Source of the DNA: a virus
IMG/VR virus record: IMGVR_UViG_3300032282_005530
Coordinates: 1 to 64,000 of that record
Length of the DNA stretch: 64,000 bases
Strand: one strand, 5' to 3'
This document shows positions 2,378 to 62,113 of this stretch, in pieces. The translations under genes and the position numbers were made by a program. Numbering within the stretch: position 1 is the first letter of the stretch; the number at the start of each line of letters is the position of its first letter. The notes under the pieces were generated by a model. That model did not search any database, was not told where the DNA came from, and saw nothing but the letters and a program-made list of their open reading frames with translations.

Positions 2378-3334
2378 TTATAGATCCATTTTTAATTTAA
2401 ATGTATAACTATCTAATTCTCTTTTTCTTACAGGATTTGCTAGTTTTGCAATACCTATTAGATTTTTTTGTTCATCATATATTGCTATTTTCGAAATGTA
2501 TGTTGTTTTTTTAAAATCTGGTTCTTCATCAACAAATGAAGAACTAACCATATTTTTACTAACAATATTACTATTTTCGATATAAACGTAAGAACTTGTA
2601 ATTGGTTGTAAATTCTGGCCATATTCTATCGATGTTGGATTATTAGAGTGATTTAATTCTCCAATTTTCGCATGAGCCATCATGGTTATATTTGGTATAT
2701 AATTTGTTCCCTCAAAATCTAATAAGAAACTCGATGAAACAACTCTATTAGTTTCATCTGAACCGGTATGCATGAAATATTTCCAAGAAGGAGGATAATA
2801 TGTCAAACCTATGCCAAATAAATCTGTATATATCGGATGCAAATTCCAAGAACCGGTTAATATTATAAATCCCTCATTATATAATACTACACCGGCTACA
2901 CTTCCGGAACCAACACTACCACTTGGACCAACTTGAATAAGTTCTCCATTTTGCTTAATATCTTTTAGTTCTGCTATTAAAGTTCCCGTTAAATACCATT
3001 TACAATCGATACTTCCTTTACGAATAGAAGAACCATAAAATATAGATGGAATACTAATCAAACTTATTTCTTGTTGTTCTTTGTCGCCAAAAGAAGAACT
3101 ATAATAATAATGCTTGCTTATATTTCCATAATAATCTAATGTATTTTTTAATGCTTTTACATAGTCTCTATTTTGATTTGTATGTACATAATCTCTAGTT
3201 ATGTTTGAAACATAAGGATATTCGCTTCCAGTTATAATATCGCCATATTGAAATTGGCTAAAATTAGTTGCAGAAACTGTTTTAAAGTTATTTAAACTTC
3301 CATCTTTTGTTATAAATTGCTTTGGTCTTGCCAT
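2378..3334 (-). CDS. Baseplate/tail-collar-like structural protein (318 aa)
   Basis: C-terminus YISKIAIYDEQKNLIGIAKLANPVRK...FKLKMDL, paralogous to 3396..4412. Confidence 0.6.
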   Translation of the reverse strand: MARPKQFITKDGSLNNFKTVSATNFSQFQYGDIITGSEYPYVSNITRDYVHTNQNRDYVKALKNTLDYYGNISKHYYYSSSFGDKEQQEISLISIPSIFYGSSIRKGSIDCKWYLTGTLIAELKDIKQNGELIQVGPSGSVGSGSVAGVVLYNEGFIILTGSWNLHPIYTDLFGIGLTYYPPSWKYFMHTGSDETNRVVSSSFLLDFEGTNYIPNITMMAHAKIGELNHSNNPTSIEYGQNLQPITSSYVYIENSNIVSKNMVSSSFVDEEPDFKKTTYISKIAIYDEQKNLIGIAKLANPVRKRELDSYTFKLKMDL

Positions 3335-51111: not shown

Positions 51112-51768
51112 TTATTTATTATCTCTAACAATTCCATGACAGGAACAATTTGGTATTCCTAGATTATCAAAATTAAGCGAAATAATTTGCTCTTTTGATA
51201 CAAAATTTTTCAATTCTTCACTCATTTTATATTCACCATTTTCAAATTTTATTAAACCTTTTTTATAAAGTTCAAAAATTAATTTTTCTGCTGTGTCGTG
51301 AGAGTGATTGTGAATTTGATTTGATTCTTTTCTATCTTGTCCGGAACATAAAAATAGATTTTCTGGTGTGTTATTTAATTTATCTCCGTCAATATGGTGA
51401 ATTATTTCGTGCTCTTCTAGATGTCTTCCTATTTGTTTTTCTATAACTAAAATATGCTCCATAATATATCTACCGCCTCTATATGGTTTTGAACGAGGGT
51501 GATCGTCAACCAAAACTGCTTTATATCCACCGCCCTGTTTTCTCCAACCTTTTCTAATATTTCCCAAGCTTATCTTTTTTTTTAATTCTTTTGATAATTT
51601 TTTTCCCCAATTAGGATGATTTTCACCAGATACAGAACACTTTCTACATAAATGCTCTTTTTTGTATTTTGCCGTTATGTATTTAACATTTCTTTCTTTA
51701 TTACACTTTTCACATTTAACTTTTATTATATCTTTCCAAGATTTTTCTTCTATATTATCTAATATCAT
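51112..51768 (-). CDS. HNH homing endonuclease with NUMOD3-like motif
   Basis: GENHPNWGKKLSKELKKKIS; EHILV...IIHHIDGDKLNNTPENL. Confidence 0.88.
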   Translation of the reverse strand: MILDNIEEKSWKDIIKVKCEKCNKERNVKYITAKYKKEHLCRKCSVSGENHPNWGKKLSKELKKKISLGNIRKGWRKQGGGYKAVLVDDHPRSKPYRGGRYIMEHILVIEKQIGRHLEEHEIIHHIDGDKLNNTPENLFLCSGQDRKESNQIHNHSHDTAEKLIFELYKKGLIKFENGEYKMSEELKNFVSKEQIISLNFDNLGIPNCSCHGIVRDNK

Positions 51769-51803
51769 TTCACTATCTCCTTTTTAGAAGTAAATAGTGA
51801 AAT
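51767..51803 (-). promoter_or_regulatory. RBS/start-sequestering hairpin containing CTATTTA
   Basis: Perfect 10-bp inverted repeat ATTTCACTAT (51767-76)/ATAGTGAAAT (51794-803); motif at 51791-97. Confidence 0.7.
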
Positions 51804-51819
51804 AAAATATTTTCTACCT

Positions 51820-53136
51820 TTATAAAATACGAGCCGCCAAACTTGCAACAGCAGATCTTTCACCCTTGGTAAGGGTTACGTGGCCGGCTAATTGTGTTGA
51901 TTTAAATTTTTCAACAGCGTAGGCAAGTCCGTTACTTGTATCATTAACATAGACATTATCTATTTGCTCTATATCGCCCGTTAAAACGATTTTGGTGTCT
52001 TCGCCTACACGAGTGACGATTGTTTTTAGTTCGTGCGCTGAGAGGTTTTGTGCTTCGTCTATAATCATGAATGCCTTGGCGATGCTGCGACCACGAATAT
52101 AGGTTAGAGCTTCAATTTCAATTTGACCCTTCATCATATATTCTTGTAATAATTCTTTATCATTACCAAGAAGGAACTGAAGATTGTCTTGGATTGGACT
52201 TAACCATGGCAACATTTTTTCTTCCATGGTTCCGGGCAAATAACCAATATCACGACCAAGTGGCTGAACTGGACGAGATACAATTAAGCGAGTATAAAGA
52301 CCTTTTGTAAGCATTTGCTCTAATCCAGCAGCAATCGCAGTTAGAGTTTTACCTGAACCAGCTTTACCTACAAGGGTTACAACTGGAACGGTTGGATCCA
52401 TCAATAGGTCCATAGCGAAACTTTGCTCTCTATTACGAGATTCAATTCCATAAATATTATTTCTTCCCTTAAACTCACCAATCTTGCGAAGTGGAGTATC
52501 TTTATTTATAAATCTGGCGAGAGCAGTTTTGTTTGGATTATTATTGCTTATCAAAGTTAGATACTGATGTGGGTAGAGATAAGATGCTGCCTTGTCTTCT
52601 AAAAACATTTGCTCACCCTTATAGTGGCGATCAATAAATTCGTCATCAACAACAATTTCTTTAAATCCAGAATACAATTCTGAACTACTGGAGATTACTT
52701 GATTTGAATCATATCCTTCAGAACCAAGACCTATTGAATCGCAAATAACTCGCATATTAATATCACGAGATACAACAACAACTTTTTTATCTTGATTATT
52801 TTTCCATACCGCATATGCCGTAGCAATAATAACGTGATCTGGAACTGTCAAATCTAAATCGGCTGGAAAGGTAGAAGGAGAAAATGCAACAGATTTAAGA
52901 AGACCTTTGCCTTTTTGTAATCTTACACCTTCTTGTAGAGAACCTTTTTCTCTTAATTCATCAAGAATTTTAATAAAGTTACGAGCATTTTGTCCAACAC
53001 CGTCTTGACGATTTTTATGTTTATCGACTTCTTCAAGAACTTTTAATGGAATATAAACATCATCTTTGCCAAAACTATAAACAGCATTAGCATTAGCCAA
53101 ACAAACACTTGTATCTAGCACGAATATTTTTTTCAT
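51820..53136 (-). CDS. phoH: PIN-PhoH family protein
   Basis: FVLDTSV PIN N-terminus; GKAGSGKT; IGYLPG; YIRGRS; DEAQN; GDIEQID. Confidence 0.93.
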   Translation of the reverse strand: MKKIFVLDTSVCLANANAVYSFGKDDVYIPLKVLEEVDKHKNRQDGVGQNARNFIKILDELREKGSLQEGVRLQKGKGLLKSVAFSPSTFPADLDLTVPDHVIIATAYAVWKNNQDKKVVVVSRDINMRVICDSIGLGSEGYDSNQVISSSSELYSGFKEIVVDDEFIDRHYKGEQMFLEDKAASYLYPHQYLTLISNNNPNKTALARFINKDTPLRKIGEFKGRNNIYGIESRNREQSFAMDLLMDPTVPVVTLVGKAGSGKTLTAIAAGLEQMLTKGLYTRLIVSRPVQPLGRDIGYLPGTMEEKMLPWLSPIQDNLQFLLGNDKELLQEYMMKGQIEIEALTYIRGRSIAKAFMIIDEAQNLSAHELKTIVTRVGEDTKIVLTGDIEQIDNVYVNDTSNGLAYAVEKFKSTQLAGHVTLTKGERSAVASLAARIL

Positions 53137-53199
53137 TTTGTTACCAACTTTTCTTTATAATAATTATGTATTTTAACCTGCGGCAATATAGTTACATAT

Positions 53200-53952
53200 A
53201 TGCCGCAGTTTTTTAAACAACTATTTGGCATGATTTTACTAGTGATATTCTCTACTAGTTGCGGATGTGTAACTGTATTAAATTCAGTTAATTTCAAAAA
53301 TGCTCCAAGAGAATCGTTTGTTAAGGTTGAAATTCTCACTTCTGAATACGCCTCTATGGGCTCTGGAGTAATTATCAACCATATCGATAATTTGAACACG
53401 ATTATTCTTACTGCTGGTCATGTTTGTGATTTTAACACAATAGCAATCAGAGTTTTAGATCTACAAGAAAATAAATATCCTGTTATTGGATTTGTAGTTT
53501 CTTCTGAAGACGATTTATGCTTGCTTATAACAGAAACAATAATACCAGCCAATCCATTAAAAATGGCTGAAAATGCTCCCGAAATAGGAGATCATATTTA
53601 TAATATTGCTGCACCATTAGGATTACATGGTCCAAATATGGCATTAATGTTTGATGGATATTATGAAGGTGCTGTTCAACTGCAAGAAGAAGAATATAAA
53701 TCTAGCGTTTATAAATTAGTTGGTGTTGGTGGAAGTTCTGGTTCTCCAATTTTTAATGAAAATTGGGAAATAATAGGAATTATTTCTCGTGGAGTTCCAG
53801 ATTTTCAACATGTTATGTTGGCAACAAATCACGAAAGAACTAGTTTATTTTACAAATATTCTTTCACTTATGATTTTAAAATAAAAATATTACAATCAAG
53901 AAAAATAAAAGAAAATTTTTCTGAAAAAGTAAAAGAAATATTTAATCAATAA
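53200..53952 (+). CDS. Trypsin-like serine protease with signal/lipoprotein-like N-terminus
   Basis: GSGVII; LTAGHVC; DLCLL; GGSSGSPIFN; hydrophobic N-terminus ending FSTSC. Confidence 0.88.
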   Translation: MPQFFKQLFGMILLVIFSTSCGCVTVLNSVNFKNAPRESFVKVEILTSEYASMGSGVIINHIDNLNTIILTAGHVCDFNTIAIRVLDLQENKYPVIGFVVSSEDDLCLLITETIIPANPLKMAENAPEIGDHIYNIAAPLGLHGPNMALMFDGYYEGAVQLQEEEYKSSVYKLVGVGGSSGSPIFNENWEIIGIISRGVPDFQHVMLATNHERTSLFYKYSFTYDFKIKILQSRKIKENFSEKVKEIFNQ

Positions 53953-53953
53953 T

Positions 53954-54136
53954 TTATTTATTTAATTTTTTAATTATCTCACGAGAAACTAAAACTTCTT
54001 TAAATCCACCGGGTATTTCTAAAAACGCGCCACCGTCATATTCAGACCAGCCTTCAATTATATAAATTAACTCTTCTATTTCTTCTTGAGTTAGTTGATC
54101 TTTAAATTCGAAATCAAAAGTTACTCGCAACTTCAT
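53954..54136 (-). CDS. Hypothetical protein (60 aa)
   Basis: Start re-called at ATG 54136; the track's longer start lies in a terminator. Confidence 0.6.
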   Translation of the reverse strand: MKLRVTFDFEFKDQLTQEEIEELIYIIEGWSEYDGGAFLEIPGGFKEVLVSREIIKKLNK

Positions 54137-54164
54137 ATAATATATAGTCTTTAAAAAAGACAAT

Positions 54165-54185
54165 AAAAAACCCCCTTTCGGGGGC
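54165..54185 (-). terminator. Intrinsic terminator after tRNA-Gln
   Basis: GCCCCCGAAAGGGGGTTTTTT. Confidence 0.9.
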
Positions 54186-54203
54186 AAATAATTATTAAGT
54201 TTT

Positions 54204-54277
54204 TGGTTGGGGAACAGGGACTCGAACCCCGATAAGTGGAATCAAAATCCACGGTCCTGCCATTAGACGATTCCCCA
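54204..54277 (-). tRNA. tRNA-Gln(UUG)
   Basis: Cloverleaf; GTGGA-TT-TTG-AT-TCCAC; CCA encoded. Confidence 0.95.
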
Positions 54278-54286
54278 ATAAAATTA

Positions 54287-54868
54287 TTAAATATTATTAA
54301 TTAATTCTTCAAACTTTTCGAATGATTCTCCAAAAATTATATGTGAATTATTTTTTATTTTTTCTCTACTCCAATTCCACCATTCTGATTTTAAAAGAAT
54401 ATCTATTTGTCTATCAGTAAATCTCTTCTTTACAACTTTTCCTGGATTACCAACAACAATAGAATACGGCTCTATATCTTTTGCTACTACGGCATGTGTT
54501 CCTATTACTGAACCTGTTCCTATTTTAACACCGGATAAAATTGTAGAAGATCTGCCTAGCCAAACATCATTCTCGATTATAATGTTTCCTTTAGTTAATA
54601 ATTCTGTTGTTGTATCTGACTTCATATCTAAATCCGGTAGATATGTTGTTATACGTTTTATATTGTGGTTTCCTCCCAGAAAGAAAGATACTTGTGCTGC
54701 TATAGAGCAAAATTTTCCTATTTTTAATTTAGCCTGATGCTCAGTAGCTTGTTCGTAATAAACAACAGAATTTAACAAAGAATTAAAACTAACAGTTATT
54801 CTTGTTGAAGAATCGATGTTTATTATGTGTGGTATATCTTTATGCTTGTGAAGTTCAACTGCCATCAT
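54287..54868 (-). CDS. CatB/Vat-like hexapeptide O-acetyltransferase
   Basis: IGKFCSIA...GGNH...ENDVWLG...ILSGVKIG.G.VIG..AVVAKDIEPYSIVVGNPG...EWWNW. Confidence 0.9.
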   Translation of the reverse strand: MMAVELHKHKDIPHIINIDSSTRITVSFNSLLNSVVYYEQATEHQAKLKIGKFCSIAAQVSFFLGGNHNIKRITTYLPDLDMKSDTTTELLTKGNIIIENDVWLGRSSTILSGVKIGTGSVIGTHAVVAKDIEPYSIVVGNPGKVVKKRFTDRQIDILLKSEWWNWSREKIKNNSHIIFGESFEKFEELINNI

Positions 54869-54893
54869 ATATTTATAATTTTATATTAATATT

Positions 54894-54980
54894 TGGTGCC
54901 CCGAGCCGGAATCGAACCGGCATGACCTTGCGGTCGGCGGATTTTAAGTCCGCTGCGTCTACCTGTTCCGCCATCGGGGC
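54894..54980 (-). tRNA. tRNA-Leu(UAA)
   Basis: GCGGA-CT-TAA-AA-TCCGC; long variable arm; CCA. Confidence 0.96.
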
Positions 54981-54992
54981 AGGAACGAGATC

Positions 54993-55021
54993 AGTATAAC
55001 ACCGATCTCCCGGTCTGTCAA
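54993..55021 (-). promoter_or_regulatory. sigma70-type promoter for tRNA-Leu
   Basis: TTGACA-17 nt-TATACT with extended -10 TG; -35 overlaps the upstream TGA. Confidence 0.85.
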
Positions 55022-55533
55022 GCCGCTGCCATCTGCTTTGTGTATTCAAAGAGCATAATGTTACACGCTTGCGCCGTATTTAAACAAAAACCTATTCCCG
55101 GCATTGGAATTTGTACAACTTCACTGTGCTGGAGAATATCGGATGGTACTCCTGTTTGTTCGTTCCCCACCACAATACAGACCTTACGATCTGTCGGATA
55201 CGCATAATCATACAAACTCCTTGAGCTGTCTGTTAATTCCGCTGATACAATATGAATATTATTCTCTCTGCAATAAGTTAAAAAATGATGTGGATTAGAA
55301 AACTTTTGAAGTTCTATGAAGTCACTTGTAGTACCTGAAAGCTCTCTTAGTTCTTTTGGTTCCGGACAACAACCAATCAGATTTACTTTACTTGCTCCAA
55401 AACAAGCAGCGGCCCTTATAACATAACCAATATTTGGTTCATGTTTAAAATTAATACAAGCAACCTCTACTGGAAACTTAACAGAGAGTTTTTCTTTGTT
55501 CTTATATCTTTCTCGACGAGTTTCACCGCGCAT
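55018..55533 (-). CDS. SPOUT (TrmH/TrmL-like) RNA 2'-O-methyltransferase
   Basis: PNIGYVIRAAACFG...VVGNEQTG...QIPMPG..CLNTAQA; start re-called at ATG 55533 (GGAG SD). Confidence 0.9.
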   Translation of the reverse strand: MRGETRRERYKNKEKLSVKFPVEVACINFKHEPNIGYVIRAAACFGASKVNLIGCCPEPKELRELSGTTSDFIELQKFSNPHHFLTYCRENNIHIVSAELTDSSRSLYDYAYPTDRKVCIVVGNEQTGVPSDILQHSEVVQIPMPGIGFCLNTAQACNIMLFEYTKQMAAA

Positions 55534-55535
55534 AT

Positions 55536-55856
55536 TCACTCCATAAAAAGAAAACAACTTGTTGGCATATTATCAGAGCATTCAATATTCCTTAGTTCTT
55601 CTTTACAAAGATAAATCATTTGCAAATCTGGTAGTTCTACGTTACACATTTCTCCATCTTTTACAACTTTATCGCAATCTTCTACATCAAATCCAGTACA
55701 GGCATGTGCTTGTACACACAAAACTTCATATGCATCATTACAAGCAGATTTTTTCTTATTTAATGACATTTGTAGTTCTACTGCATTTTTAGCAGTAATA
55801 CCAAATAAAAAACCACCCGCTAATCCTATAATACAAAAAAGAATATTTTTTTTCAT
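55536..55856 (-). CDS. Cys-rich membrane-anchored/secreted protein (106 aa)
   Basis: N-terminal hydrophobic segment, 8 downstream Cys. Confidence 0.7.
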   Translation of the reverse strand: MKKNILFCIIGLAGGFLFGITAKNAVELQMSLNKKKSACNDAYEVLCVQAHACTGFDVEDCDKVVKDGEMCNVELPDLQMIYLCKEELRNIECSDNMPTSCFLFME

Positions 55857-56341
55857 GTATTTAATCCTTTTCTCTTTGTTCCATCATTACCTTTATGAAC
55901 TATGAAATCGGCAGCATAAATAGCAAAAATAGAATCAGGCTTACAGTATGCTTTAAATCCCATCGATTCAGCATACCCAATAGCACCAGCAACAAGTCGA
56001 CTCGATTCATAGGTAATATCTGGATTCAAATCAAAGTCAATACATTCAATATCTATTGAATAATCGTCTCTTAACGTCGTAGCAAACTCAATTGCTTTCT
56101 CGACCTCAACCCAAAGACGAACTTGTGGTTCTTCAATTTTAGCAATTTTTTCTTTTGAATAAAGAATAAAAGCACCACTCTTGTCTGGATGAATTCCGAC
56201 AAGAGTAGTAATAAAGACAGTTTTATCCTTGATGTTCATACTATCACATCCAACACGATATTTAATATTTGGATGTTTTGAAATCACATCTTCTAGTGAT
56301 ACTTCTGAACCATCGTGTAAAGTTTTAATTTTTAGTTCCAT
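55853..56341 (-). CDS. RNase H-like YkuK (DUF458) family protein
   Basis: VGCDS...RLWVEVEKAI...DLNPD...KPDS..A.YAAD; start re-called at 56341. Confidence 0.75.
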   Translation of the reverse strand: MELKIKTLHDGSEVSLEDVISKHPNIKYRVGCDSMNIKDKTVFITTLVGIHPDKSGAFILYSKEKIAKIEEPQVRLWVEVEKAIEFATTLRDDYSIDIECIDFDLNPDITYESSRLVAGAIGYAESMGFKAYCKPDSIFAIYAADFIVHKGNDGTKRKGLNT

Positions 56342-56365
56342 AAACATTCCTAGGAATATAAACAA

Positions 56366-56393
56366 GACTGCCCTGTTTTTAGGCAGGGCAGTC
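56366..56393 (-). terminator. Terminator-like hairpin
   Basis: GACTGCCCTG-8 nt-CAGGGCAGTC followed by TTGTTT. Confidence 0.7.
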
Positions 56394-56406
56394 ATCTAAT
56401 CATCTA

Positions 56407-56724
56407 TCAAGTAGCAGGCTTCCAACCAAGCTTTTTAAAGTGTTCTGAACGAGAACTAAACCACTCTCGTCCCTTCTCTGAATCATTGCGGGAGATAAAT
56501 TTAATTCCTTTTGTAGTTACTGGATAAGCTACATGCTTCAATCCACTTAGATTAGCAAGTGCTACTGTCTTTACTCGGAAAGGAATTTCATCAACCATAA
56601 CAACCATTCCGTGTTGTGGAACGAAATTAGCCTCAACAGTCTTTACGAGTGTTGAATTCTGGTGTTCTTCACGACCACGAAGTTCAAGATCAAGATTTAG
56701 TTCAATTGTACGCTTATCAGACAT
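56407..56724 (-). CDS. Hypothetical protein (105 aa)
   Basis: AGGAG SD before ATG 56724. Confidence 0.7.
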   Translation of the reverse strand: MSDKRTIELNLDLELRGREEHQNSTLVKTVEANFVPQHGMVVMVDEIPFRVKTVALANLSGLKHVAYPVTTKGIKFISRNDSEKGREWFSSRSEHFKKLGWKPAT

Positions 56725-56757
56725 AACATTTCTCCTTTTGTTCAAGTGTCGGTAGTC

Positions 56758-57192
56758 TCAATCTACCATGCACATATCATATCTTTCTACATCAATACCA
56801 GATTTTTTTAAGATGTCTAATCCTTTTGAATCTCGGTATTCATCACAAAAAATAACTTTTTTAATTCCAGCATTAACAATCATACGAGCACAAACAGGAC
56901 AAGGCGAATGAGTGAGATACATTTTTTTGTTTCTGTGATCTCCAAAATTCATCTTGATCAACGCATTTGCTTCTGCGTGGATGAACCCACTTTTACCCGG
57001 CTCCATACTATCAGGTTGATTATTTCCACCTTGCTCGTCTCCGTTGTAACCAATAGCAAGAACACTAGTATTGTCTTCTGTAACAATTACAGAACCAACT
57101 TTCAATCTGGGATCACGGGAACGTTCTGCGATATGCAGAGTTAATCCCATCCAGATTTCATCCCACTTTGGTTTTTTCTTTGGTCTTGCCAT
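56758..57192 (-). CDS. dCMP deaminase family protein
   Basis: KVGSVIV...GYNG...HAEANA...THSPCPVCARMIVNAGI; start probably 57192. Confidence 0.9.
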   Translation of the reverse strand: MARPKKKPKWDEIWMGLTLHIAERSRDPRLKVGSVIVTEDNTSVLAIGYNGDEQGGNNQPDSMEPGKSGFIHAEANALIKMNFGDHRNKKMYLTHSPCPVCARMIVNAGIKKVIFCDEYRDSKGLDILKKSGIDVERYDMCMVD

Positions 57193-57376
57193 ACTTTTCC
57201 CCATAACATTCATCACAAAGTTTTTCTTCTTGTAATGTTGTCCATTCCCATTCATTCATACAACAATCACAAAGCTTTGATGGGTCTTTAATCGCCGCTC
57301 TATTCGCTTTTGACAAGACTCTTGCTGCTTTTAATGCTGCTTTAAGTATTTTGCCTTCTTTTTTATTTTCATTCAT
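57158..57376 (-). CDS. Small Zn-finger-like protein (72 aa)
   Basis: CDCC...CDEC; starts 4 nt after tRNA-Arg CCA. Confidence 0.55.
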   Translation of the reverse strand: MNENKKEGKILKAALKAARVLSKANRAAIKDPSKLCDCCMNEWEWTTLQEEKLCDECYGEKYGKTKEKTKVG

Positions 57377-57380
57377 GATT

Positions 57381-57457
57381 TGGCGCTCTCGGAGAGATTC
57401 GAACTCCCGACCTTACGGGTAGAAACCGTCGGCTCTATCCAACTGAGCTACGAGAGC
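57381..57457 (-). tRNA. tRNA-Arg(UCU)
   Basis: ACGG-TT-TCT-AC-CCGT; CCA. Confidence 0.95.
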
Positions 57458-57465
57458 ATTTCCTT

Positions 57466-57630
57466 TCACTTTCCTAATACACGATACAAATCAAAACATC
57501 CACTACACTGACCTATTGATAATACGATAATCAATAGGGTTGAAACGGCGCCCAACTGTCTTGAAAATTCTTTTACAGCACCGGCCCAAGTTTCAGTAAC
57601 TACAATCGTATTTTTATTCTGTTCTGTCAT
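57466..57630 (-). CDS. Small membrane protein (54 aa), not in ORF track
   Basis: MTEQNKNTIVVTETWAGAVKEFSRQLGAVSTLLIIVLSIGQCSGCFDLYRVLGK, fills the gap between tRNA-Asn and tRNA-Arg. Confidence 0.55.
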   Translation of the reverse strand: MTEQNKNTIVVTETWAGAVKEFSRQLGAVSTLLIIVLSIGQCSGCFDLYRVLGK

Positions 57631-57643
57631 TTTCTTCTCTATT

Positions 57644-57720
57644 TGGCTGTCCAGGTTGGGGTCGAACCAACGACTTCGTGATTAACAGTCACGCGCTACT
57701 ACCAACTGAGCTACTGGACA
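57644..57720 (-). tRNA. tRNA-Asn(GUU)
   Basis: CGTGA-CT-GTT-AA-TCACG; CCA. Confidence 0.95.
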
Positions 57721-58186
57721 ATAAAATATTTCTTTCATTTTTGTCTATCATATTTCTGATATTTTCAATTTTATCAGAAAATCTTTTATCTGTTTCATAT
57801 TTTTTAAATATGTATGAATTATTTTCTATGTGGGTTTTTATTCGGTGGCAATTTGCGCATAATATTCTACATTTTGCTATTTCATTTTTTATAGCTTCAG
57901 ACTTTACACCTATTCTTACCATTTCAGAAACAGACTCAGTTTTATTATCAATATGATCAAACTCTAAAACCATTGGATTTTGTTCTTCGCATATAAAACA
58001 TTTGTGCGCTTCTTTTATTTCTAAAACTACATCTTGTAAACGATTTCTGTTATTTTTTACTCTTTCTTGTTGCTTTAATTTATTTTTATTCCACCAAATA
58101 CTTTGATTTTTTTTATTACATGAACGACATTGTTTTCTTCCATTTTTGTAAACTACTTTTTCTTCATTATGCTCTTTACAAATCAC
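57689..58186 (-). CDS. HNH endonuclease overlapping tRNA-Asn
   Basis: CFIC...LEFDH...EIAKCRILCANCHRIKTH; last 32 nt lie inside tRNA-Asn. Confidence 0.88.
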   Translation of the reverse strand: MICKEHNEEKVVYKNGRKQCRSCNKKNQSIWWNKNKLKQQERVKNNRNRLQDVVLEIKEAHKCFICEEQNPMVLEFDHIDNKTESVSEMVRIGVKSEAIKNEIAKCRILCANCHRIKTHIENNSYIFKKYETDKRFSDKIENIRNMIDKNERNILLSSSSVGSSA

Positions 58187-58187
58187 T

Positions 58188-58263
58188 TGGTACTCCCGGT
58201 GGGATTCGAACCCACATTTGTACGCTTATAAGGCGCGCGCATTAACCGTAATGCTACAGGAGT
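58188..58263 (-). tRNA. tRNA-Ile(UAU)
   Basis: ACTCCTG/CGGGAGT acceptor; loop CT-TAT-AA; A73; CCA. Confidence 0.9.
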
Positions 58264-58269
58264 AAATAG
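58263..58269 (-). promoter_or_regulatory. Putative late promoter CTATTTA ending on nt 1 of tRNA-Ile
   Basis: Minus strand ACTATTTA-CTCCTG. Confidence 0.5.
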
Positions 58270-58329
58270 TACTTATAACTTGTAAGAGACTTATAAAACT
58301 TCTACCGAGTTACGAGAGCACATGCATGC

Positions 58330-58358
58330 ATCATAGCAGAGATCGCTGGCCGCGTCAA
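58330..58358 (-). promoter_or_regulatory. sigma70-type promoter upstream of tRNA-Ile
   Basis: TTGACG-17 nt-TATGAT with extended -10 TG. Confidence 0.8.
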
Positions 58359-58372
58359 GCACGGCACAACGG

Positions 58373-58618
58373 TCATTTATTTTTTTTATTCTTTTTTGGC
58401 GTTTCTTCTGTTTGAACTAATGCTGGATTTGTTCTTACTTTGACTACAAATGTTTCAACTCCAGCAGCGTTTACAAAACGTTTTACTTTTACCTGTTTTG
58501 TTTCATCGGATAGAAAAGTTTTTCTAAATGTATCCGCTTCTCCGAATGTTGAAAACACTCGCTTATTATCCCATGGTGGTCCATCTTTATGTGGAACTTT
58601 TTCAACTTGTTCTGTCAT
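58373..58618 (-). CDS. Hypothetical basic protein (81 aa)
   Basis: ORF co-oriented. Confidence 0.7.
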   Translation of the reverse strand: MTEQVEKVPHKDGPPWDNKRVFSTFGEADTFRKTFLSDETKQVKVKRFVNAAGVETFVVKVRTNPALVQTEETPKKNKKNK

Positions 58619-58913
58619 TTTTTTTCTCTCTTTCTTTATTAAATTTCTCTAATCTAACTCGATGCTGATGTAACAAAACAATCAAACGATTGGTATTATC
58701 TTGATCGAGATTTACAACATCCCAATTTCCATATTTGCACTTATAGCCAAGTAGATATTTACCTACTGTGACTAGTTTTCCAATAATATTTTTTGGCTGT
58801 ATTAATTGAAAGTGAAAAAATAATTCTGGTGGCCATTCACCATCGCTTTGTTCACTTGTTACGCAAAATGTATGTTCCTTACTGGAACAAGTGCATTCAA
58901 AATAATCATTCAT
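58602..58913 (-). CDS. Hypothetical protein
   Basis: Start re-called at ATG 58913 (ATGA overlap); YFECTCSSKEH. Confidence 0.7.
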   Translation of the reverse strand: MNDYFECTCSSKEHTFCVTSEQSDGEWPPELFFHFQLIQPKNIIGKLVTVGKYLLGYKCKYGNWDVVNLDQDNTNRLIVLLHQHRVRLEKFNKEREKKNDRTS

Positions 58914-59155
58914 ACCGGTTGGACCCATTTTTCTAAAAATAATTCTTCTTCGGTACAATTATCATGAAAACCAATCCATATTTGTTGGTGAGAGCTAATA
59001 AATTTAAATATATCATTAAACTCACCACTAATAAGATATACTCTACCGGTTATTCCATTTTCGACTGTATATTTTCCACAATCTTTTTCTACGAGAAGTG
59101 GAGGAAGAACAGGTTTTGTGAACTTGTCCATAAAAACAAACATACTGTAATGCAT
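58910..59155 (-). CDS. Hypothetical protein (81 aa)
   Basis: ORF co-oriented, coupled downstream. Confidence 0.65.
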   Translation of the reverse strand: MHYSMFVFMDKFTKPVLPPLLVEKDCGKYTVENGITGRVYLISGEFNDIFKFISSHQQIWIGFHDNCTEEELFLEKWVQPV

Positions 59156-59167
59156 TTTATTCTCTTT

Positions 59168-59761
59168 TCAGAAACATGTCTCTAAAAACAATTTTAACAT
59201 TTTTTTTGAAGGTTTTAAAGTTCTTGTGAATGTTTTTGGCATATTAGAAAATATTTTATTTGTTCTAGATGGTGCAGTTTTAAACCATTTTCTTTTTATT
59301 TTGGCTGCTTCATATCCAAGAACATAACTATTTGCTTTCTGAATATAAAGTTTCTCATCTTTATATAATTTATATTCTTTTATAAATTTTAAAGCTCTCT
59401 TCTCGCAATCCAATTCACATTTTTGTATTAATTCACAAGTTTTTTGTAATTTATTCTTAGAAAGTTCTATTTTTCCTTCAAGCCATTCATCAAAATCAAC
59501 ATAAGCATCAGAAGTAGCTTTATCTAAAAATTTATTTTCTTTCCATTGACAAAAATGACTATATTCATGTGCTAATACGGTAAGCCATTCATCACAATAA
59601 ATAGCAACATTTAATCGTCGCTCATCGTCACTCCAATAACCAGAAACACCTATCTTTTTTGAGAGTTTTATTTCTTGTTTTGGATGAAAGACTATTTCAA
59701 CCCCATGTCTTAAACAGTCTTCTTGAACCAATTCTAAGAACTTCAGGATTGAATTTTTCAT
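59168..59761 (-). CDS. HExxH metallopeptidase-like protein (197 aa)
   Basis: VLAHEYSHFCQW...ELDCEKRA; CTAGTTA motif variant just upstream, possibly leaderless. Confidence 0.65.
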   Translation of the reverse strand: MKNSILKFLELVQEDCLRHGVEIVFHPKQEIKLSKKIGVSGYWSDDERRLNVAIYCDEWLTVLAHEYSHFCQWKENKFLDKATSDAYVDFDEWLEGKIELSKNKLQKTCELIQKCELDCEKRALKFIKEYKLYKDEKLYIQKANSYVLGYEAAKIKRKWFKTAPSRTNKIFSNMPKTFTRTLKPSKKMLKLFLETCF

Positions 59762-59789
59762 ATATTTAACTAGTCATAACGAAAAATTT

Positions 59790-59863
59790 TGGTGGACCGG
59801 GAGAGAATCGAACTCTCAATTCAACGATGCAAACGTCGTGTTATCCCATTTAACTACCAGCCC
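59790..59863 (-). tRNA. tRNA-Ala(UGC)
   Basis: G3:U70 identity pair; CGACG-TT-TGC-AT-CGTTG; CCA. Confidence 0.93.
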
Positions 59864-59866
59864 ATA

Positions 59867-59957
59867 TGGCGGACAGGGTGAGATTCGAACTCACGATAGG
59901 CTATTAACCTACTCCGGGTTAGTAATCCGGTGCCTTCAGCCACTCGGCCACCTGTCC
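59867..59957 (-). tRNA. tRNA-Ser(ACU)
   Basis: GGACAGG acceptor, G73, long variable arm; CCGGA-TT-ACT-AA-CCCGG; CCA. Confidence 0.88.
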
Positions 59958-59964
59958 ATTATAT

Positions 59965-60216
59965 TTACTTAGGTGGAAAAACCACTTTTACCATAACTAA
60001 TTTAAAATCATCTTTACTATCTTTTCCCCAAAGTAAACTATCTACCATTCTACCAAGCCAATTTTTTCTTACAAGAGTTACAGAATAATTTTTCTTTATC
60101 ATATCACCTTGTTCTGGTGTTAAAAATTTTTCTGAAACAAGCGCATCAACAAACCCCTCTTTTACAAGGTTAAAATTGATTGGAAGACTTTCATCATATT
60201 GAACTATTTGTGACAT
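59965..60216 (-). CDS. Hypothetical protein (83 aa)
   Basis: ORF between tRNA genes. Confidence 0.7.
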   Translation of the reverse strand: MSQIVQYDESLPINFNLVKEGFVDALVSEKFLTPEQGDMIKKNYSVTLVRKNWLGRMVDSLLWGKDSKDDFKLVMVKVVFPPK

Positions 60217-60243
60217 ATTTAAATCTCTCTAAAATTAAGTCCG

Positions 60244-60327
60244 ATGTTTAACCCGGATTCGAACCGGGATGCCATAACGGCGCTATAAACTACTTTATAG
60301 TGAGTCTACCAATTCCTCCAGTAAACA
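60244..60327 (-). ncRNA. Aberrant tRNA-Leu-like gene (closed anticodon arm, no CCA)
   Basis: Leu-type D arm GAGGAATTGGTAGACTC, variable arm, perfect T arm CCCGG-TTCGAAT-CCGGG; anticodon arm CTATAAA-GTAG-TTTATAG. Confidence 0.75.
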
Positions 60328-60335
60328 TAAGACAG

Positions 60336-60410
60336 TGGTGACGGGTGCGGGAATCGAACCCGCGATGCCTGGGTGAAAGCCAAGTGTTATAACCGTTTAA
60401 CTAACCCGCC
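60336..60410 (-). tRNA. tRNA-Glu(UUC)
   Basis: CTTGG-CT-TTC-AC-CCAGG; CCA. Confidence 0.93.
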
Positions 60411-61053
60411 TTTTCTTTTTTATAAAACCTACAGCACTTTTATGAATATTAAATTTTTTAGCTATCATACTATAACTATCTTGATCGTTTAAGATTGATA
60501 ATATTTGTTCTTCCGAAAGTTTCGGTTTAAATCTCGTTTTTTTTCCGGATTCAATAAAATTATTTTCATTTTGTTTTTTTCTATATTTTCCACAACAAAT
60601 ACGACTACAAAAGTTTGTTTTTTTTGGTTTTCTTTCAGAGTTATAATTTTTTAAACAATGCATACAATTTAAATTATATTTTGGATTATAAATATCGTAC
60701 AATAAATAAAATTTTGTAGTATGATATTTGTTTTTTACATAATCAAAAATATGTTTTAAATCTTTTTTATATAAAACTTTAATTTTATATCCATTATCAA
60801 TTGCTATTTGAGTTTTTATTTTAACAATTTCTGTTTCATATCCTTTAATTTCTACAATTTCACTCGTATCGGTTAAAATAAAATCTGGATAATATTTTAT
60901 ATTACCATCTGTTAAAAAACCCGGAAACCTACAAAAAGATATATTATTTTCTAAATTATAAATTACCCAGCACAATTCATATGTAGAACCACAATATATA
61001 CCTTTATAATATCCGGTCTTACTGCGACCAGTACCTTTTCTTATTCCGCCCAT
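60397..61053 (-). CDS. PD-(D/E)XK endonuclease with Zn finger and HTH, overlapping tRNA-Glu
   Basis: STYEL...YYPDF...EIKG; CMHC...FCSRIC; SYSMIAKKFNIHKSAV; last 14 nt inside tRNA-Glu. Confidence 0.8.
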   Translation of the reverse strand: MGGIRKGTGRSKTGYYKGIYCGSTYELCWVIYNLENNISFCRFPGFLTDGNIKYYPDFILTDTSEIVEIKGYETEIVKIKTQIAIDNGYKIKVLYKKDLKHIFDYVKNKYHTTKFYLLYDIYNPKYNLNCMHCLKNYNSERKPKKTNFCSRICCGKYRKKQNENNFIESGKKTRFKPKLSEEQILSILNDQDSYSMIAKKFNIHKSAVGFIKKKRRVS

Positions 61054-61115
61054 ATTAAATTTCCTTTAATATAATTAGAATATTCCTAGCCATTAGACAA
61101 TAAAAAATTAAAAAA

Positions 61116-61188
61116 AGCCGATACTCAGACTTGAACTGAGAACCTTCGCGTTACAAGGGCGATGCTCTACCAATTGAGCTATGTCGGC
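61116..61188 (-). tRNA. tRNA-Thr(UGU), CCA not encoded
   Basis: GCCGACA acceptor; TCGCC-CT-TGT-AA-CGCGA; followed by a T run. Confidence 0.88.
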
Positions 61189-61190
61189 AA

Positions 61191-61214
61191 ATTGGCACAC
61201 GAAAGTGTGCCAAT
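61191..61214 (-). terminator. Strong hairpin (terminator or processing signal) just before tRNA-Thr
   Basis: ATTGGCACAC-TTTC-GTGTGCCAAT; only a short U tail. Confidence 0.5.
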
Positions 61215-61217
61215 ATA

Positions 61218-61496
61218 TCACTTTTTACGTAGACGAGTAACCGCTACAGCAAGAAGTCCTACAACCAATACTAAAACTGCTCCAGTGGCAGGTGTAAGTT
61301 GAAGACCTTCATCATCAGTGTCAGTTACAGCAACTTGTACCCCTTCTACGGTTACAGCTACGTCCGGAACTGCTTCACCTTCACCAGCTACTACTGGTGC
61401 TGCTGCAACGACTTCTTCAGTTTTAGGTGAATCTGTAACTGCTGTAGCTGTATCAGTTGTTTGTGTAGTTGGCGTGTTTGTTGTTTGATTATCCAT
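61218..61496 (-). CDS. Thr/Val/Ala-rich protein with C-terminal membrane anchor
   Basis: AAGGAG SD before ATG 61496; C-terminal hydrophobic helix + RLRKK. Confidence 0.7.
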   Translation of the reverse strand: MDNQTTNTPTTQTTDTATAVTDSPKTEEVVAAAPVVAGEGEAVPDVAVTVEGVQVAVTDTDDEGLQLTPATGAVLVLVVGLLAVAVTRLRKK

Positions 61497-61854
61497 TTGT
61501 TTCTCCTTCAAAATAAGTAACAATATTATATTTTTTGATAGACTGCACGTATTCCATTCTATCAATTCCTAACAGAGCAGCGGCTTCCCGATCTGATCTG
61601 GTGGCAGATGCAGCATACATTAGTAGTGCCGCCTTGGCAACATCTTTGAGACTCTTATAAATTGGTATTCCAAAAAGAGCAGTACCAGATGCTTTAATTG
61701 CTAATTCTAATTTTAAACCTATCAATTCTTCTATTGTTAGTGAATTTAACATTATTTCAAATTGTTCTGATATTTTACCATCGCGTTTTAATTTTTTCGA
61801 CAACGAATAGTGTTCGCGTTTACCTTGAATTTTTCTTTTCTTCTTCCAAGTCAC
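61489..61854 (-). CDS. Fis-like HTH DNA-binding protein
   Basis: LLMYAASATRSDREAAALLGIDRMEYVQSIKKYNI resembles the Fis/NtrC C-terminal HTH. Confidence 0.6.
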   Translation of the reverse strand: MTWKKKRKIQGKREHYSLSKKLKRDGKISEQFEIMLNSLTIEELIGLKLELAIKASGTALFGIPIYKSLKDVAKAALLMYAASATRSDREAAALLGIDRMEYVQSIKKYNIVTYFEGETNG

Positions 61855-62113
61855 TTACTAATCCTAAAAGGGCATAACCCGCTATATCACGATATGGACT
61901 TTCACCAAACGCATCTTTTCTTGTAGCTATGCGAAACAATTTATCAATTATTCGTGTTATTGTTAATAGATCTCTATAGTTTTCTGGTTTAACACCGTTA
62001 GGAAATAAAATTTTTATTATCTCTTCACTTTTCGAAAAACTATCGCCATAAGCTTCTTGTTTTTCTTTTACAAGTTTACCTATTTCAGTAGCAGTTTTTA
62101 TATAGTCTCTCAT
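61820..62113 (-). CDS. DUF1599-like nucleotide-modification-associated protein
   Basis: EKQEAYGDSF...DKLFRI...YRDIAGYALL. Confidence 0.55.
   Translation of the reverse strand: MRDYIKTATEIGKLVKEKQEAYGDSFSKSEEIIKILFPNGVKPENYRDLLTITRIIDKLFRIATRKDAFGESPYRDIAGYALLGLVSDLEEEKKNSR

What the first reader, a model, noticed from the sequence alone, without database searches (positions are those of the whole stretch)
60336..61078. Second, unrelated endonuclease also terminates inside a tRNA (Glu)
Seen: the PD-(D/E)XK ORF ends AGG CGG GTT AGT TAA, with 14 nt inside tRNA-Glu. Its start sits in an 8-bp hairpin ATATTAAA-GGAAA-TTTAATAT (61072-61052) directly below CTAATTA (61078-61072). Inference: two nuclease families converge on the same design, where tRNA 5' maturation removes the stop codon and a late start opens the RBS. 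All three free-standing endonucleases in the window show the motif plus an occluded RBS or start.
Basis: partly seen in the sequence, partly recalled or inferred. Interest (0 to 1): 0.72.

Follow-up and report, generated by a model that had tools for sequence, protein, structure and literature searches.

The report
Homing nuclease carrying spare tRNA-Glu
A selfish DNA-cutting-enzyme gene in a freshwater phage sits where the phage's glutamate tRNA gene was broken and brings an altered spare copy whose first bases also supply the enzyme gene's stop codon; the overlap looks like a by-product of this compact cassette, not a proven control device.

Summary
In detail: the 218-aa ORF 61053-60397(-) ends TAA 14 nt inside tRNA-Glu(UUC) 60410-60336, and its AUG lies in an A/U hairpin just below CTAATTA. 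The ORF is a PD-(D/E)XK + zinc-ribbon + HTH nuclease of a large, uncultured-phage family. In 65 dereplicated relatives, 29 end at the 5' edge of a same-strand tRNA-Glu(UUC) (19 inside it, 10 up to 26 nt before it) and 5 end in an opposite-strand one. The gene is mobile: none of 9 syntenic relatives holds it intact; three have tRNA-Thr and tRNA-Glu 3-4 nt apart and one keeps a 515-nt-deleted remnant. Family-wide the gene plus a complete tRNA-Glu lie nested between the two halves of a broken tRNA-Glu (halves pair 7/7 in 6 of 8 loci); the broken copy has the usual D arm, the carried copy an altered D stem. The window keeps only a D-arm stump (61098-61084). So the stop-in-tRNA is best read as an internal junction of a "break and replace" homing cassette; the closest homologues stop before the tRNA. 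The late-promoter/hairpin part matches known T4 control and has family support. Stop removal by RNase P is untested. This scan noted the same design before on other DNA; I found no paper on it.

The parts
61116..61188 (-). tRNA-Thr(UGU), left neighbour; in three relatives it is followed after 3-4 nt by tRNA-Glu
61084..61098 (-). Stump of the broken resident tRNA-Glu: exact D-arm motif GTCTAATGGCTAGGA; the acceptor strand before it is replaced by T/A-rich sequence
   Evidence: only hit in 64 kb, 0 mismatches; with 1 mismatch allowed 0.34 expected; same position as the 5' fragments of 16 related clusters
61072..61078 (-). CTAATTA, candidate late-promoter element of this phage, 19 nt before the ATG
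   Evidence: 17 copies versus 55 +/- 6 expected; 6 of 12 minus-strand copies lie 19-23 nt before an ORF start, four of them in the tail/baseplate part of the window. Function inferred.
61042..61082 (-). Leader hairpin (10-bp A/U inner stem 61074-61050 with loop GGAAA holding the SD, plus 6-bp outer stem) that pairs the AUG
60397..61053 (-). Nuclease gene, 218 aa: PD-(D/E)XK core (about 13-101), CxxC...CxxxC zinc ribbon (130-153), C-terminal HTH-like region; last 4 codons and the stop are read from the tRNA
60336..60410 (-). Complete tRNA-Glu(UUC), 'type A' allele with altered D stem (GTTA.../...TAAC) and A9; the only tRNA-Glu in the 82-kb record
60397..60410 (-). 14-nt overlap of ORF end and tRNA 5' end
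60558..61072 (-). 515-nt stretch deleted in natural variants (5-nt microhomology), leaving leader plus HTH-coding tail
   Evidence: L082; 18-kb contig of run X7 from another study, joint 60557/61073

Best explanation
The ORF is the nuclease gene of a mobile 'break and replace' homing cassette specific for phage tRNA-Glu(UUC) genes. Shown: the gene is an insertion between tRNA-Thr and tRNA-Glu, absent or decayed in relatives. In its family, the unit [late promoter - nuclease gene - complete tRNA-Glu] lies nested between the 5' and 3' halves of a broken tRNA-Glu split in the anticodon stem-loop. The carried tRNA differs from the broken one in acceptor and D stem. Inferred: the enzyme cuts the usual tRNA-Glu gene near the anticodon loop of a co-infecting phage that lacks the cassette. 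Repair then copies the cassette in. The altered D stem makes the carried tRNA-Glu a poor substrate, so the phage keeps a working tRNA-Glu without any intron. The nuclease gene is packed flush against its own tRNA, so its reading frame often runs on to the first stop in the tRNA. That stop is TAG at U8-A9-G10 in 13 clusters and TAA at positions 12-14 here, after loss of about 7 native codons and the native stop. The overlap is thus an inherited internal junction of the cassette. Expression is probably limited to late transcripts that start just below CTAATTA and cannot form the hairpin that pairs the AUG, as in T4 (inferred). A consequence, not shown to be a purpose: one transcript cannot give both a mature tRNA-Glu and an mRNA with its stop codon.
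For: Mobility in this phage's own clade: 9 syntenic loci fetched with the neighbouring 197-aa gene. None has the intact gene. L086, L087 and L089 have tRNA-Thr then 3-4 nt then tRNA-Glu. L082 keeps a 190-nt remnant with the same junction to the tRNA. Run X2 holds the intact form, and X7 (another study) holds the 515-nt deletion. Two tRNA-Glu alleles occur, and their spread disagrees with the neighbour gene's identity: type A in the window, L082 (86%), L088 and L089 (66%); the usual type B in L083-L085 (79-83%) and L086/87 (68%). Family link to tRNA-Glu: of 80 viral loci, 38 have a same-strand tRNA-Glu(UUC) starting -26..+43 nt from the stop. After 90% dereplication, 34 of the 45 clusters with a tRNA at the stop have tRNA-Glu(UUC), which is 48 of 500 tRNAs in those loci (binomial 9e-26; clusters are related, so p is rough). 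Nesting, by nhmmer with a tRNA-Glu model: 22 of 65 clusters have a 5' fragment (model 1-8 to 24-38) before the gene. 5 have fragment-gene-complete tRNA-3' fragment, 10 have 5' fragment plus complete tRNA, 4 have complete tRNA plus 3' fragment, and 3 have both fragments without a complete tRNA. The two fragments of one locus pair 7/7 in their acceptor strands in 6 of 8 loci (5/7 in 2), against 2 of 56 cross-locus pairs. The 5' fragment pairs only 2-4/7 with the carried tRNA. Empty site for a nested locus: the exact 25-nt 5' half of L021's broken gene is the start of an uninterrupted tRNA-Glu(UUC) in 39 of 42 contigs (2 cut by the locus end, 1 is L021's own contig). L127 and L114 share 82% over 260 nt of upstream flank. 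Altered spare: the usual D-arm motif occurs 30 times in the 66 loci; 21 are orphan fragments, 17 of them upstream of the nuclease gene. 28 of 30 complete tRNA-Glu at the gene's 3' end lack it, with compensating changes in the D stem; all 5 type-B alleles of relatives have it. Window: exact D-arm stump at 61098-61084. Nuclease fold: Bax1 E 0.02-0.04, T7 endonuclease I 0.26; hhalign 93.6% to a relative that hits Phage_endo_I.
Against: No cleavage, homing or RNA data exist; target and immunity are inferred. In the window the case is incomplete. There is no 3' fragment, nhmmer did not find the stump, and the pattern hit alone is weak (with 1 mismatch allowed, 29 of 100 shuffles give a hit). Type A tRNA-Glu also occurs without the nuclease gene (L088, L089), so it may be an older allele rather than cargo. 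20 of 65 clusters have no tRNA within 60 nt of the stop and 11 adjoin other tRNAs. 2 of 30 adjacent tRNA-Glu have the usual D arm (L051, L059). 10 of 13 tRNA-Glu elsewhere in these loci also lack the motif, so 'altered' may partly reflect lineage diversity. Single fragments have weak E-values (0.01-7). Clusters share ancestry, so counts overstate independent events.
Confidence: 0.68

Rival explanations
1. One reading: the stop codon is placed inside the tRNA so that RNase P cleavage at the tRNA 5' end removes it. Ribosomes then stall, tmRNA tags the product, and nuclease dose stays low. Together with the late start this is an evolved dosing device shared by two nuclease families.
For: Overlap is commoner in this family than for other ORFs of at least 100 aa that adjoin a same-strand tRNA in the same loci: 19 of 29 versus 4 of 30 with at least 6 nt (7 of 30 with at least 1 nt); Fisher 5e-5 and 0.0016. 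It arises in several registers: TAG 8-10, TAA 12-14, 15-43 nt, and antisense TGA in the T loop. A9 of the carried tRNAs creates the TAG, whereas the usual allele has C9. The HNH gene 57689-58186 also runs 32 nt into tRNA-Asn.
Against: 10 of 29 clusters stop 0-26 nt before the tRNA, among them the four closest full-length homologues with a downstream tRNA-Glu. The window's overlap follows loss of about 7 native C-terminal codons. The 13 ten-nt overlaps fall into a few junction lineages with related C-terminal peptides, so they are largely inherited. Several of the 'other' ORFs are themselves HNH or PD-(D/E)XK genes that stop just before the tRNA. There are no RNA ends and no tag data.
Confidence: 0.15
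2. Anti-defence cargo: the altered tRNA-Glu is kept because it escapes a host tRNA-Glu-cutting defence. The nuclease serves mainly to spread or amplify it, as SegB amplifies tRNA-Tyr in T6.
For: SegB cuts within tRNA genes, is widely linked to tRNAs, and drives amplification of tRNA-Tyr under Septu pressure (PMC13096335, passages read). The carried tRNA-Glu alleles differ from the usual one in D stem and position 9.
Against: SegB shows no isotype preference (same paper), whereas this family is tied to one isotype and to a broken copy of that same tRNA. The anticodon loop, the usual target of anticodon nucleases (recalled), is unchanged in type A. No tandem amplification is seen in the window. 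This is not exclusive of the main explanation.
Confidence: 0.1
3. Chance: an ordinary gene that happens to abut a tRNA in a crowded tRNA array and reads on to the next stop, with no link between the two.
For: tRNA arrays here have 3-5-nt spacers, and any ORF without its own stop ends soon in a tRNA.
Against: Isotype-specific linkage is seen in 34 of 45 tRNA-adjacent clusters. There are also nested fragments with matching acceptor strands, and presence/absence among relatives.
Confidence: 0.03

Closest known systems
SegB of phages T4/T6 (free-standing GIY-YIG homing endonuclease in the tRNA gene cluster; PMC2330249 abstract read, PMC13096335 passages read)
   Same: Free-standing nuclease gene inside a phage tRNA array. 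SegB recognises a tRNA-gene motif and spreads itself together with neighbouring tRNA genes. segB has a predicted late promoter and an RBS-hiding hairpin (PMC2988022).
   Different: Different fold (PD-(D/E)XK, not GIY-YIG). SegB recognises the shared T-arm motif, shows no isotype preference, and sits in an intergenic spacer. This family is tied to tRNA-Glu(UUC), lies inside a broken copy of it, and carries a complete altered copy.
Translational control of T4 intron endonucleases I-TevI/II/III and Aeh1 mobE (late promoter inside an RBS-sequestering hairpin; I-TevI autorepression at an operator like its homing site; review PMC2988022, passages read)
   Same: A promoter-like motif lies directly before a hairpin that pairs the SD or AUG, both in the window and in many homologues. 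The stump of the target lies 5 nt before the promoter motif, as the I-TevI operator overlaps its promoter.
   Different: Transcript starts are not mapped here. The window's motif is CTAATTA, not TATAAATA. Binding of the nuclease to the stump is pure inference.
I-Ssp6803I (PD-(D/E)XK homing endonuclease; reference list of PMC3943268 seen; its place in the tRNA-fMet group I intron of Synechocystis is recalled)
   Same: A PD-(D/E)XK homing enzyme whose target is a tRNA gene, with insertion at the anticodon loop.
   Different: That enzyme rides a self-splicing intron that restores the tRNA. Here Rfam finds only tRNAs in 53-62 kb, the insert is nearly all ORF, and function is restored by a second, complete tRNA gene.
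Free-standing endonuclease genes that split host genes (Aeh1 mobE in nrdA, T4 mobA between genes 60 and 39; 'fractured genes', PMC2677866, listing and abstract only)
   Same: The nuclease gene is inserted inside a conserved gene without an intron.
   Different: There the two gene parts stay functional, as split proteins or split inteins. Here the split tRNA halves are dead and a spare gene is supplied.
Synthetic 'cleave and rescue' gene drives (recalled, no call)
   Same: The logic: a nuclease against an important gene, linked to a recoded, uncuttable copy of that gene.
   Different: The drive is man-made, Cas9-based and eukaryotic. Here the link to homing by repair and the immunity of the spare are inferred.

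Membership tests
Free-standing homing endonuclease gene | Encodes a nuclease domain with extra DNA-binding modules | tested here: met
   E26/D57/E68/K70 and four Cys are invariant; there is an HTH-like tail; Atlas neighbours carry NUMOD3, TnsA_N and Phage_endo_I
Free-standing homing endonuclease gene | Present or absent at one conserved site among otherwise syntenic genomes | tested here: met
   0 of 9 syntenic loci have it intact, 3 have a 3-4-nt spacer, and 1 has a remnant; X7 and X5 contigs; the L021 allele is intact in 39 of 42 contigs
Free-standing homing endonuclease gene | Site-specific cleavage of the allele that lacks it, and one-way gene conversion | not testable with these tools
   Needs enzyme assays or crosses; only allele incongruence is seen
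PD-(D/E)XK nuclease superfamily | Motif E ... PD ... (D/E)xK on a restriction-endonuclease-like core | tested here: met
   YE26, P56-D57 and E68-x-K70 are invariant in 26 sequences
PD-(D/E)XK nuclease superfamily | Significant match to a curated family or solved structure of the fold | tested here: inconclusive
GIY-YIG Seg family (SegB) | GIY-YIG catalytic domain | tested here: not met
   No GIY-YIG hit in Pfam or PHROGs
Intron-encoded tRNA homing endonuclease (I-Ssp6803I type) | Gene lies in a group I intron that interrupts the tRNA | tested here: not met
   Rfam gathering scan of 53000-62000 gives nine tRNAs only; the 705-nt insert is a 62-nt leader plus ORF
Break-and-replace tRNA cassette (design noted earlier in this scan; not found in print) | 5' fragment of a same-isotype tRNA before the nuclease gene | tested here: met
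   Window: D-arm stump only. Family: 22 of 65 clusters
Break-and-replace tRNA cassette (design noted earlier in this scan; not found in print) | Complete tRNA of the same isotype directly after the gene, differing from the fragment | tested here: met
   Window tRNA-Glu type A versus the stump and type B. Family: 28 of 30 adjacent tRNAs lack the usual D arm
Break-and-replace tRNA cassette (design noted earlier in this scan; not found in print) | 3' fragment after the complete tRNA whose acceptor strand pairs with the 5' fragment | tested here: not met
   Not found in the window. Met in relatives: 7/7 pairing in 6 of 8 loci
T4-type late-promoter/hairpin control of endonuclease translation | Hairpin pairs SD or AUG; late promoter placed so that late transcripts lack the 5' arm | tested here: inconclusive
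   Hairpin and motif geometry are present and family leaders are structured. Transcript starts and promoter activity cannot be tested here
   19 of 29 lie inside and 10 of 29 before; the closest four lie before
   Runs are held as contigs only

The most novel reading that the evidence does not exclude
A natural 'cleave and rescue' drive for an RNA gene. The PD-(D/E)XK enzyme reads the D-arm/anticodon-stem DNA of the usual phage tRNA-Glu gene and cuts at the anticodon loop. The cassette it copies in carries a D-stem-recoded, uncuttable tRNA-Glu, so no intron is needed. The D-arm stump kept 5 nt before the promoter serves as an operator for autorepression, as in I-TevI. The stop codon inside the spare tRNA makes tRNA maturation and nuclease synthesis mutually exclusive on any one transcript, which ties nuclease dose to tRNA processing.
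Probability: 0.3. Interest if true: 0.8.

Novelty: new variant of a known kind. Interest (0 to 1): 0.62.

Why it matters
Homing endonucleases are thought to need a self-splicing intron or intein to invade conserved genes, or else to sit beside them. Here a large family of phage nucleases appears to invade one tRNA gene directly and to pay for the damage with a spare, altered copy. If so, this explains three things: why nuclease genes in phage tRNA arrays sit flush against, or run into, the next tRNA; why orphan tRNA halves litter these arrays; and how phage tRNA alleles turn over and spread between lineages. It also yields candidate enzymes with a defined roughly 30-bp natural target, plus a natural set of 'resistant' target variants. 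The overlap further gives a simple test bed for competition between translation and RNase P processing on one RNA.

Tried and rejected
Group I intron: rejected. Rfam finds only tRNAs, and the N-terminal extensions of some relatives are zinc-finger coding sequence, not ribozyme.

Close relatives among cultured phages: none. tblastn of 50,697 phage records gave only 10 partial hits (Lak phages and one uncultured phage), and blastn found only tRNA matches.

The exact 29-nt 5' fragment of L017 occurs only in its own contig, so no empty site was found that way. The shorter L021 fragment succeeded.

HNH gene 57689-58186: a single-sequence locus search gave 8 distant hits, which I did not analyse further. 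Its tRNA-Asn is the same allele as in relatives without the gene, and no tRNA-Asn stump precedes it. At that site the insertion is in a plain spacer, so 'same design' holds only for the run-on into the tRNA.

RNA evidence: the RNA runs hold at most 0.06 of the sampled words and are kept as contigs, which cannot show ends, so I did not lay them. No statement on expression is made. The X5 joint (60343/61114) has unknown letters between its sides, so I read it only as 'no nuclease gene there'.

Literature: I found nothing on a nuclease gene nested in a split tRNA with a spare copy. Searches were made, over full text of open PMC and bioRxiv only; supplements are closed and subscription journals are not covered.

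p-values treat clusters as independent, which they are not.
Full report
WHAT IS THERE. On the minus strand the window reads as follows. First comes tRNA-Thr(UGU) at 61188-61116, then a 62-nt leader. Next is an ATG at 61053 opening a 218-aa ORF that ends TAA at 60399-60397. tRNA-Glu(UUC) lies at 60410-60336, and 8 nt further on is an odd tRNA-like gene. ORF and tRNA-Glu share 14 nt. The last four codons and the stop are read from tRNA positions 1-14. The leader holds CTAATTA (61078-61072). Directly below it is an A/U hairpin whose loop carries the AGGA Shine-Dalgarno and whose 3' arm carries AU of the AUG. The hairpin core is weak (-2.5 to -4.5 kcal/mol). With an outer stem the 52-nt leader reaches -9.8 kcal/mol, z -2.7, and 2 of 200 shuffles fold as well. 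In an 86-nt frame it is not exceptional (z -1.05).

THE PROTEIN. Pfam gives nothing and PHROGs only weak hits. The protein has 442 relatives at E <= 0.001 among 522 candidates in the large protein set, nearly all unnamed. An alignment of 26 shows invariant E26, P56-D57 and E68-x-K70, then CxxC...CxxxC (130-153), then an HTH-like tail. A profile of it hits Bax1 (E 0.02-0.04) and T7 endonuclease I (0.26) among solved structures. 6 of 26 members hit DUF790 and 5 of 26 hit Phage_endo_I, all below Pfam's cut-offs. hhalign gives 93.6% to a relative that matches Phage_endo_I. Atlas neighbours carry NUMOD3, TnsA_N and Phage_endo_I. I accept PD-(D/E)XK on motif plus consistent weak hits. Typical close homologues are 223-225 aa and end seven or so residues after the point where the window protein runs into the tRNA.

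IT IS MOBILE. Using the neighbouring 197-aa gene I fetched 9 syntenic loci (58-86% identity). None holds the intact nuclease gene. In L086, L087 and L089, tRNA-Thr is followed after 3-4 nt by tRNA-Glu. L082, the closest relative, has a 190-nt remnant: the window's leader joined to the HTH-coding tail, with the same junction to the tRNA. Laying public contigs on the region shows three forms: the intact form in run X2, the same 515-nt deletion (5-nt microhomology) in an 18-kb contig of X7 from another study, and a contig of X5 that skips the gene. This is the presence, decay and absence pattern expected of a homing endonuclease gene.

THE FAMILY IS TIED TO tRNA-Glu. A scan of viral contigs gave 124 relatives, of which 80 loci were kept. 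In 38 of the 80, a same-strand tRNA-Glu(UUC) starts -26 to +43 nt from the ORF's stop. After dereplication at 90% identity there are 65 clusters besides the window:
- 19 end inside a same-strand tRNA-Glu(UUC). In 13 of these the overlap is exactly 10 nt, and the stop is the TAG formed by U8-A9-G10.
- 10 end 0-26 nt before one.
- 5 end about 39 nt (one of them 1 nt) inside an opposite-strand tRNA-Glu. L027 also does so.
- 11 adjoin other tRNAs.
- 20 have no tRNA within 60 nt.
tRNA-Glu(UUC) is 48 of the 500 tRNAs in these loci, yet 34 of the 45 tRNAs at the stop. The four closest full-length homologues with a downstream tRNA-Glu (L002, L003, L004, L008) all stop before it.

THE NESTED ARCHITECTURE. 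While reading the sequence upstream of the homologues' starts, I saw tRNA-Glu 5' halves that break off after the D arm and are followed by TATAAATA. I then searched all loci with nhmmer, using a model built from the 46 distinct tRNA-Glu sequences. 22 of 65 clusters have a 5' fragment (model positions 1-8 to 24-38) before the gene:
- 5 show the full order: 5' fragment, promoter and nuclease gene, complete tRNA-Glu, 3' fragment (L002, L017, L021, L023, L047).
- 10 have the 5' fragment plus a complete tRNA.
- 4 have a complete tRNA plus a 3' fragment.
- 3 have both fragments around the gene without a complete tRNA (L011, L034, L050).
In the best-kept pairs the missing model positions are about 30-37, which is the anticodon loop. 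The two fragments are halves of one gene. Their acceptor strands pair 7/7 in 6 of 8 loci (5/7 in two), against 2 of 56 cross-locus combinations. The 5' fragment pairs only 2-4/7 with the enclosed tRNA, which itself pairs 7/7. None of these 3' fragments lies in a tRNA called by ARAGORN; one further hit, in L066, does and was dropped.

For L021 I found the unbroken target. Its exact 25-nt 5' half begins an uninterrupted tRNA-Glu(UUC) in 39 of 42 contigs; two others are cut by the locus end and one is L021's own contig. The 3' end of that tRNA equals L021's 3' fragment. L127 and L114 share 82% identity over 260 nt of the upstream flank. So nuclease gene and complete tRNA-Glu were inserted together into a resident tRNA-Glu gene.

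THE CARRIED tRNA IS ALTERED. The D-arm motif of ordinary bacterial-type tRNA-Glu (GTCYA..GG..AGGA) is present in all five type-B alleles of the window's relatives. It occurs 30 times in the 66 loci. 21 of these are orphan fragments, and 17 of them lie upstream of the nuclease gene: 45-76 nt before it, or 328-416 nt where an N-terminal zinc-finger extension intervenes. In contrast, 28 of 30 complete tRNA-Glu at the gene's 3' end lack the motif. They have other D stems with compensating changes, and many have A9. In 10 clusters and in the window, the usual motif (fragment) and an altered one (complete tRNA) occur side by side. Caveats: 10 of 13 tRNA-Glu elsewhere in these loci also lack the motif, and L051 and L059 are exceptions.

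THE WINDOW IN THIS LIGHT. The leader holds an exact D-arm motif at 61098-61084, the only hit in 64 kb, 5 nt before CTAATTA. That is the position of the 5' fragments in relatives. Its acceptor strand is gone, no 3' fragment is found, and the tRNA-Glu is the altered 'type A'. Type A also occurs in L082 (with the remnant) and in L088 and L089 (no nuclease gene). L083-L087 have the usual type B. This spread disagrees with the identity of the neighbouring gene, as expected if the allele moves with, or was left behind by, the cassette. The record's only tRNA-Glu is this one (the record is 44% complete).

THE STOP IN THE tRNA. Given the cassette, the ORF/tRNA junction is internal and inherited. Overlap is commoner here than for other tRNA-adjacent ORFs in the same loci (19 of 29, versus 4 of 30 with at least 6 nt). 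But several of those other ORFs are themselves HNH or PD-(D/E)XK genes that stop 1-8 nt before the tRNA. The ten-nt overlaps belong to few junction lineages, a third of the family has its own stop, and the window's overlap follows loss of the native C-terminus. I therefore read the overlap as compaction that is tolerated, not as a demonstrated device. Its consequence is real, however: a transcript cut by RNase P at 60410/60411 has no stop codon for this ORF. Whether that matters is open.

THE START. CTAWTTA is three-fold depleted in the window (17 versus 55 +/- 6). 6 of its 12 minus-strand copies lie 19-23 nt before an ORF start: this gene, the HNH gene at 51768, and four genes in the tail/baseplate part of the window. 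Two of three such structural-gene leaders are unstructured (z +0.7 and +1.3), and the third has a terminator-like hairpin that does not cover the start. The HNH leader at 51768 has a -15.4 kcal/mol hairpin (z -4.9), with the motif in its 5' arm and the AUG in its 3' arm. Family-wide, leaders are more structured than control starts, and half carry TATAAATA (my start predictions are rough for relatives with N-terminal extensions). This matches the control described for T4 endonuclease genes, including segB (PMC2988022). Transcript starts remain unmapped.

COMPARISON AND NOVELTY. SegB is the nearest described case. It is a free-standing GIY-YIG enzyme in the T4 tRNA cluster that recognises the T-arm motif and spreads neighbouring tRNA genes (PMC2330249, abstract). 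It is widely linked to tRNAs without isotype preference (PMC13096335, passages). The present family differs in fold, in isotype specificity, in lying inside a broken copy of its tRNA, and in carrying an altered complete copy. My five literature searches found no description of that design. Earlier notes of this scan describe the same design on other DNA, for several isotypes and nuclease folds. One of them (e1-5643258) concerns a tRNA-Glu case of apparently this family. I reached the architecture before reading those notes. They agree with it but are not independent evidence.

Noticed in passing
window 60243-60327 (-): tRNA-like gene with a 7-bp anticodon stem and a 4-nt loop, 8 nt after tRNA-Glu. 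It is kept in L082-L085 whether or not the nuclease gene is present, so it is not the missing 3' fragment.
   Followed up: partly
L085 4109-4731; L083 about 6221-6356: Another ORF (186 aa) between tRNA-Ile and tRNA-Asn runs 14 nt into a divergent tRNA-Asn allele. L083 keeps that allele plus a short remnant of the ORF's end. This may be a second nuclease-plus-tRNA-allele unit at the site that the window's HNH gene occupies.
   Followed up: partly
window 51757-51808 (-): The leader of HNH gene 51112-51768 folds into a 13+3-bp hairpin, -15.4 kcal/mol, z -4.9 (0 of 200 shuffles as good). CTATTTA lies in its 5' arm and the AUG in its 3' arm.
   Followed up: partly
window, whole: CTAWTTA is three-fold depleted (17 versus 55 +/- 6). 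6 of 12 minus-strand copies lie 19-23 nt before ORF starts, which makes it a candidate late promoter of this phage.
   Followed up: partly
L048 3618-4517 (-): A 299-aa PD-(D/E)XK relative (Phage_endo_I E 2.5e-6, below cut-off) runs 54 nt into tRNA-Gln(UUG). This suggests sister families with other tRNA targets.
   Followed up: no
L011 2376-3207: The order here is complete tRNA-Glu, 5' fragment, nuclease gene, 3' fragment. The split gene's D arm is itself of the altered kind, which may mean a nuclease retargeted to a formerly resistant allele.
   Followed up: no
L014, L038, L048, L056 (about 2990-3080 in each): In this sub-family the nuclease gene is convergent with tRNA-Glu. The ORF ends 39-40 nt inside the antisense of the tRNA's 3' part, and the stop TGA comes from the T loop. 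Minus-strand 3' fragments lie upstream in L038, L048 and L056.
   Followed up: partly
L034 2144-3036: The two halves of the split tRNA-Glu have about 9 nt of complementarity around the break, longer than a normal anticodon stem.
   Followed up: no
window 59867-59957 (-): tRNA-Ser called with anticodon ACT, kept in all nine relatives.
   Followed up: no
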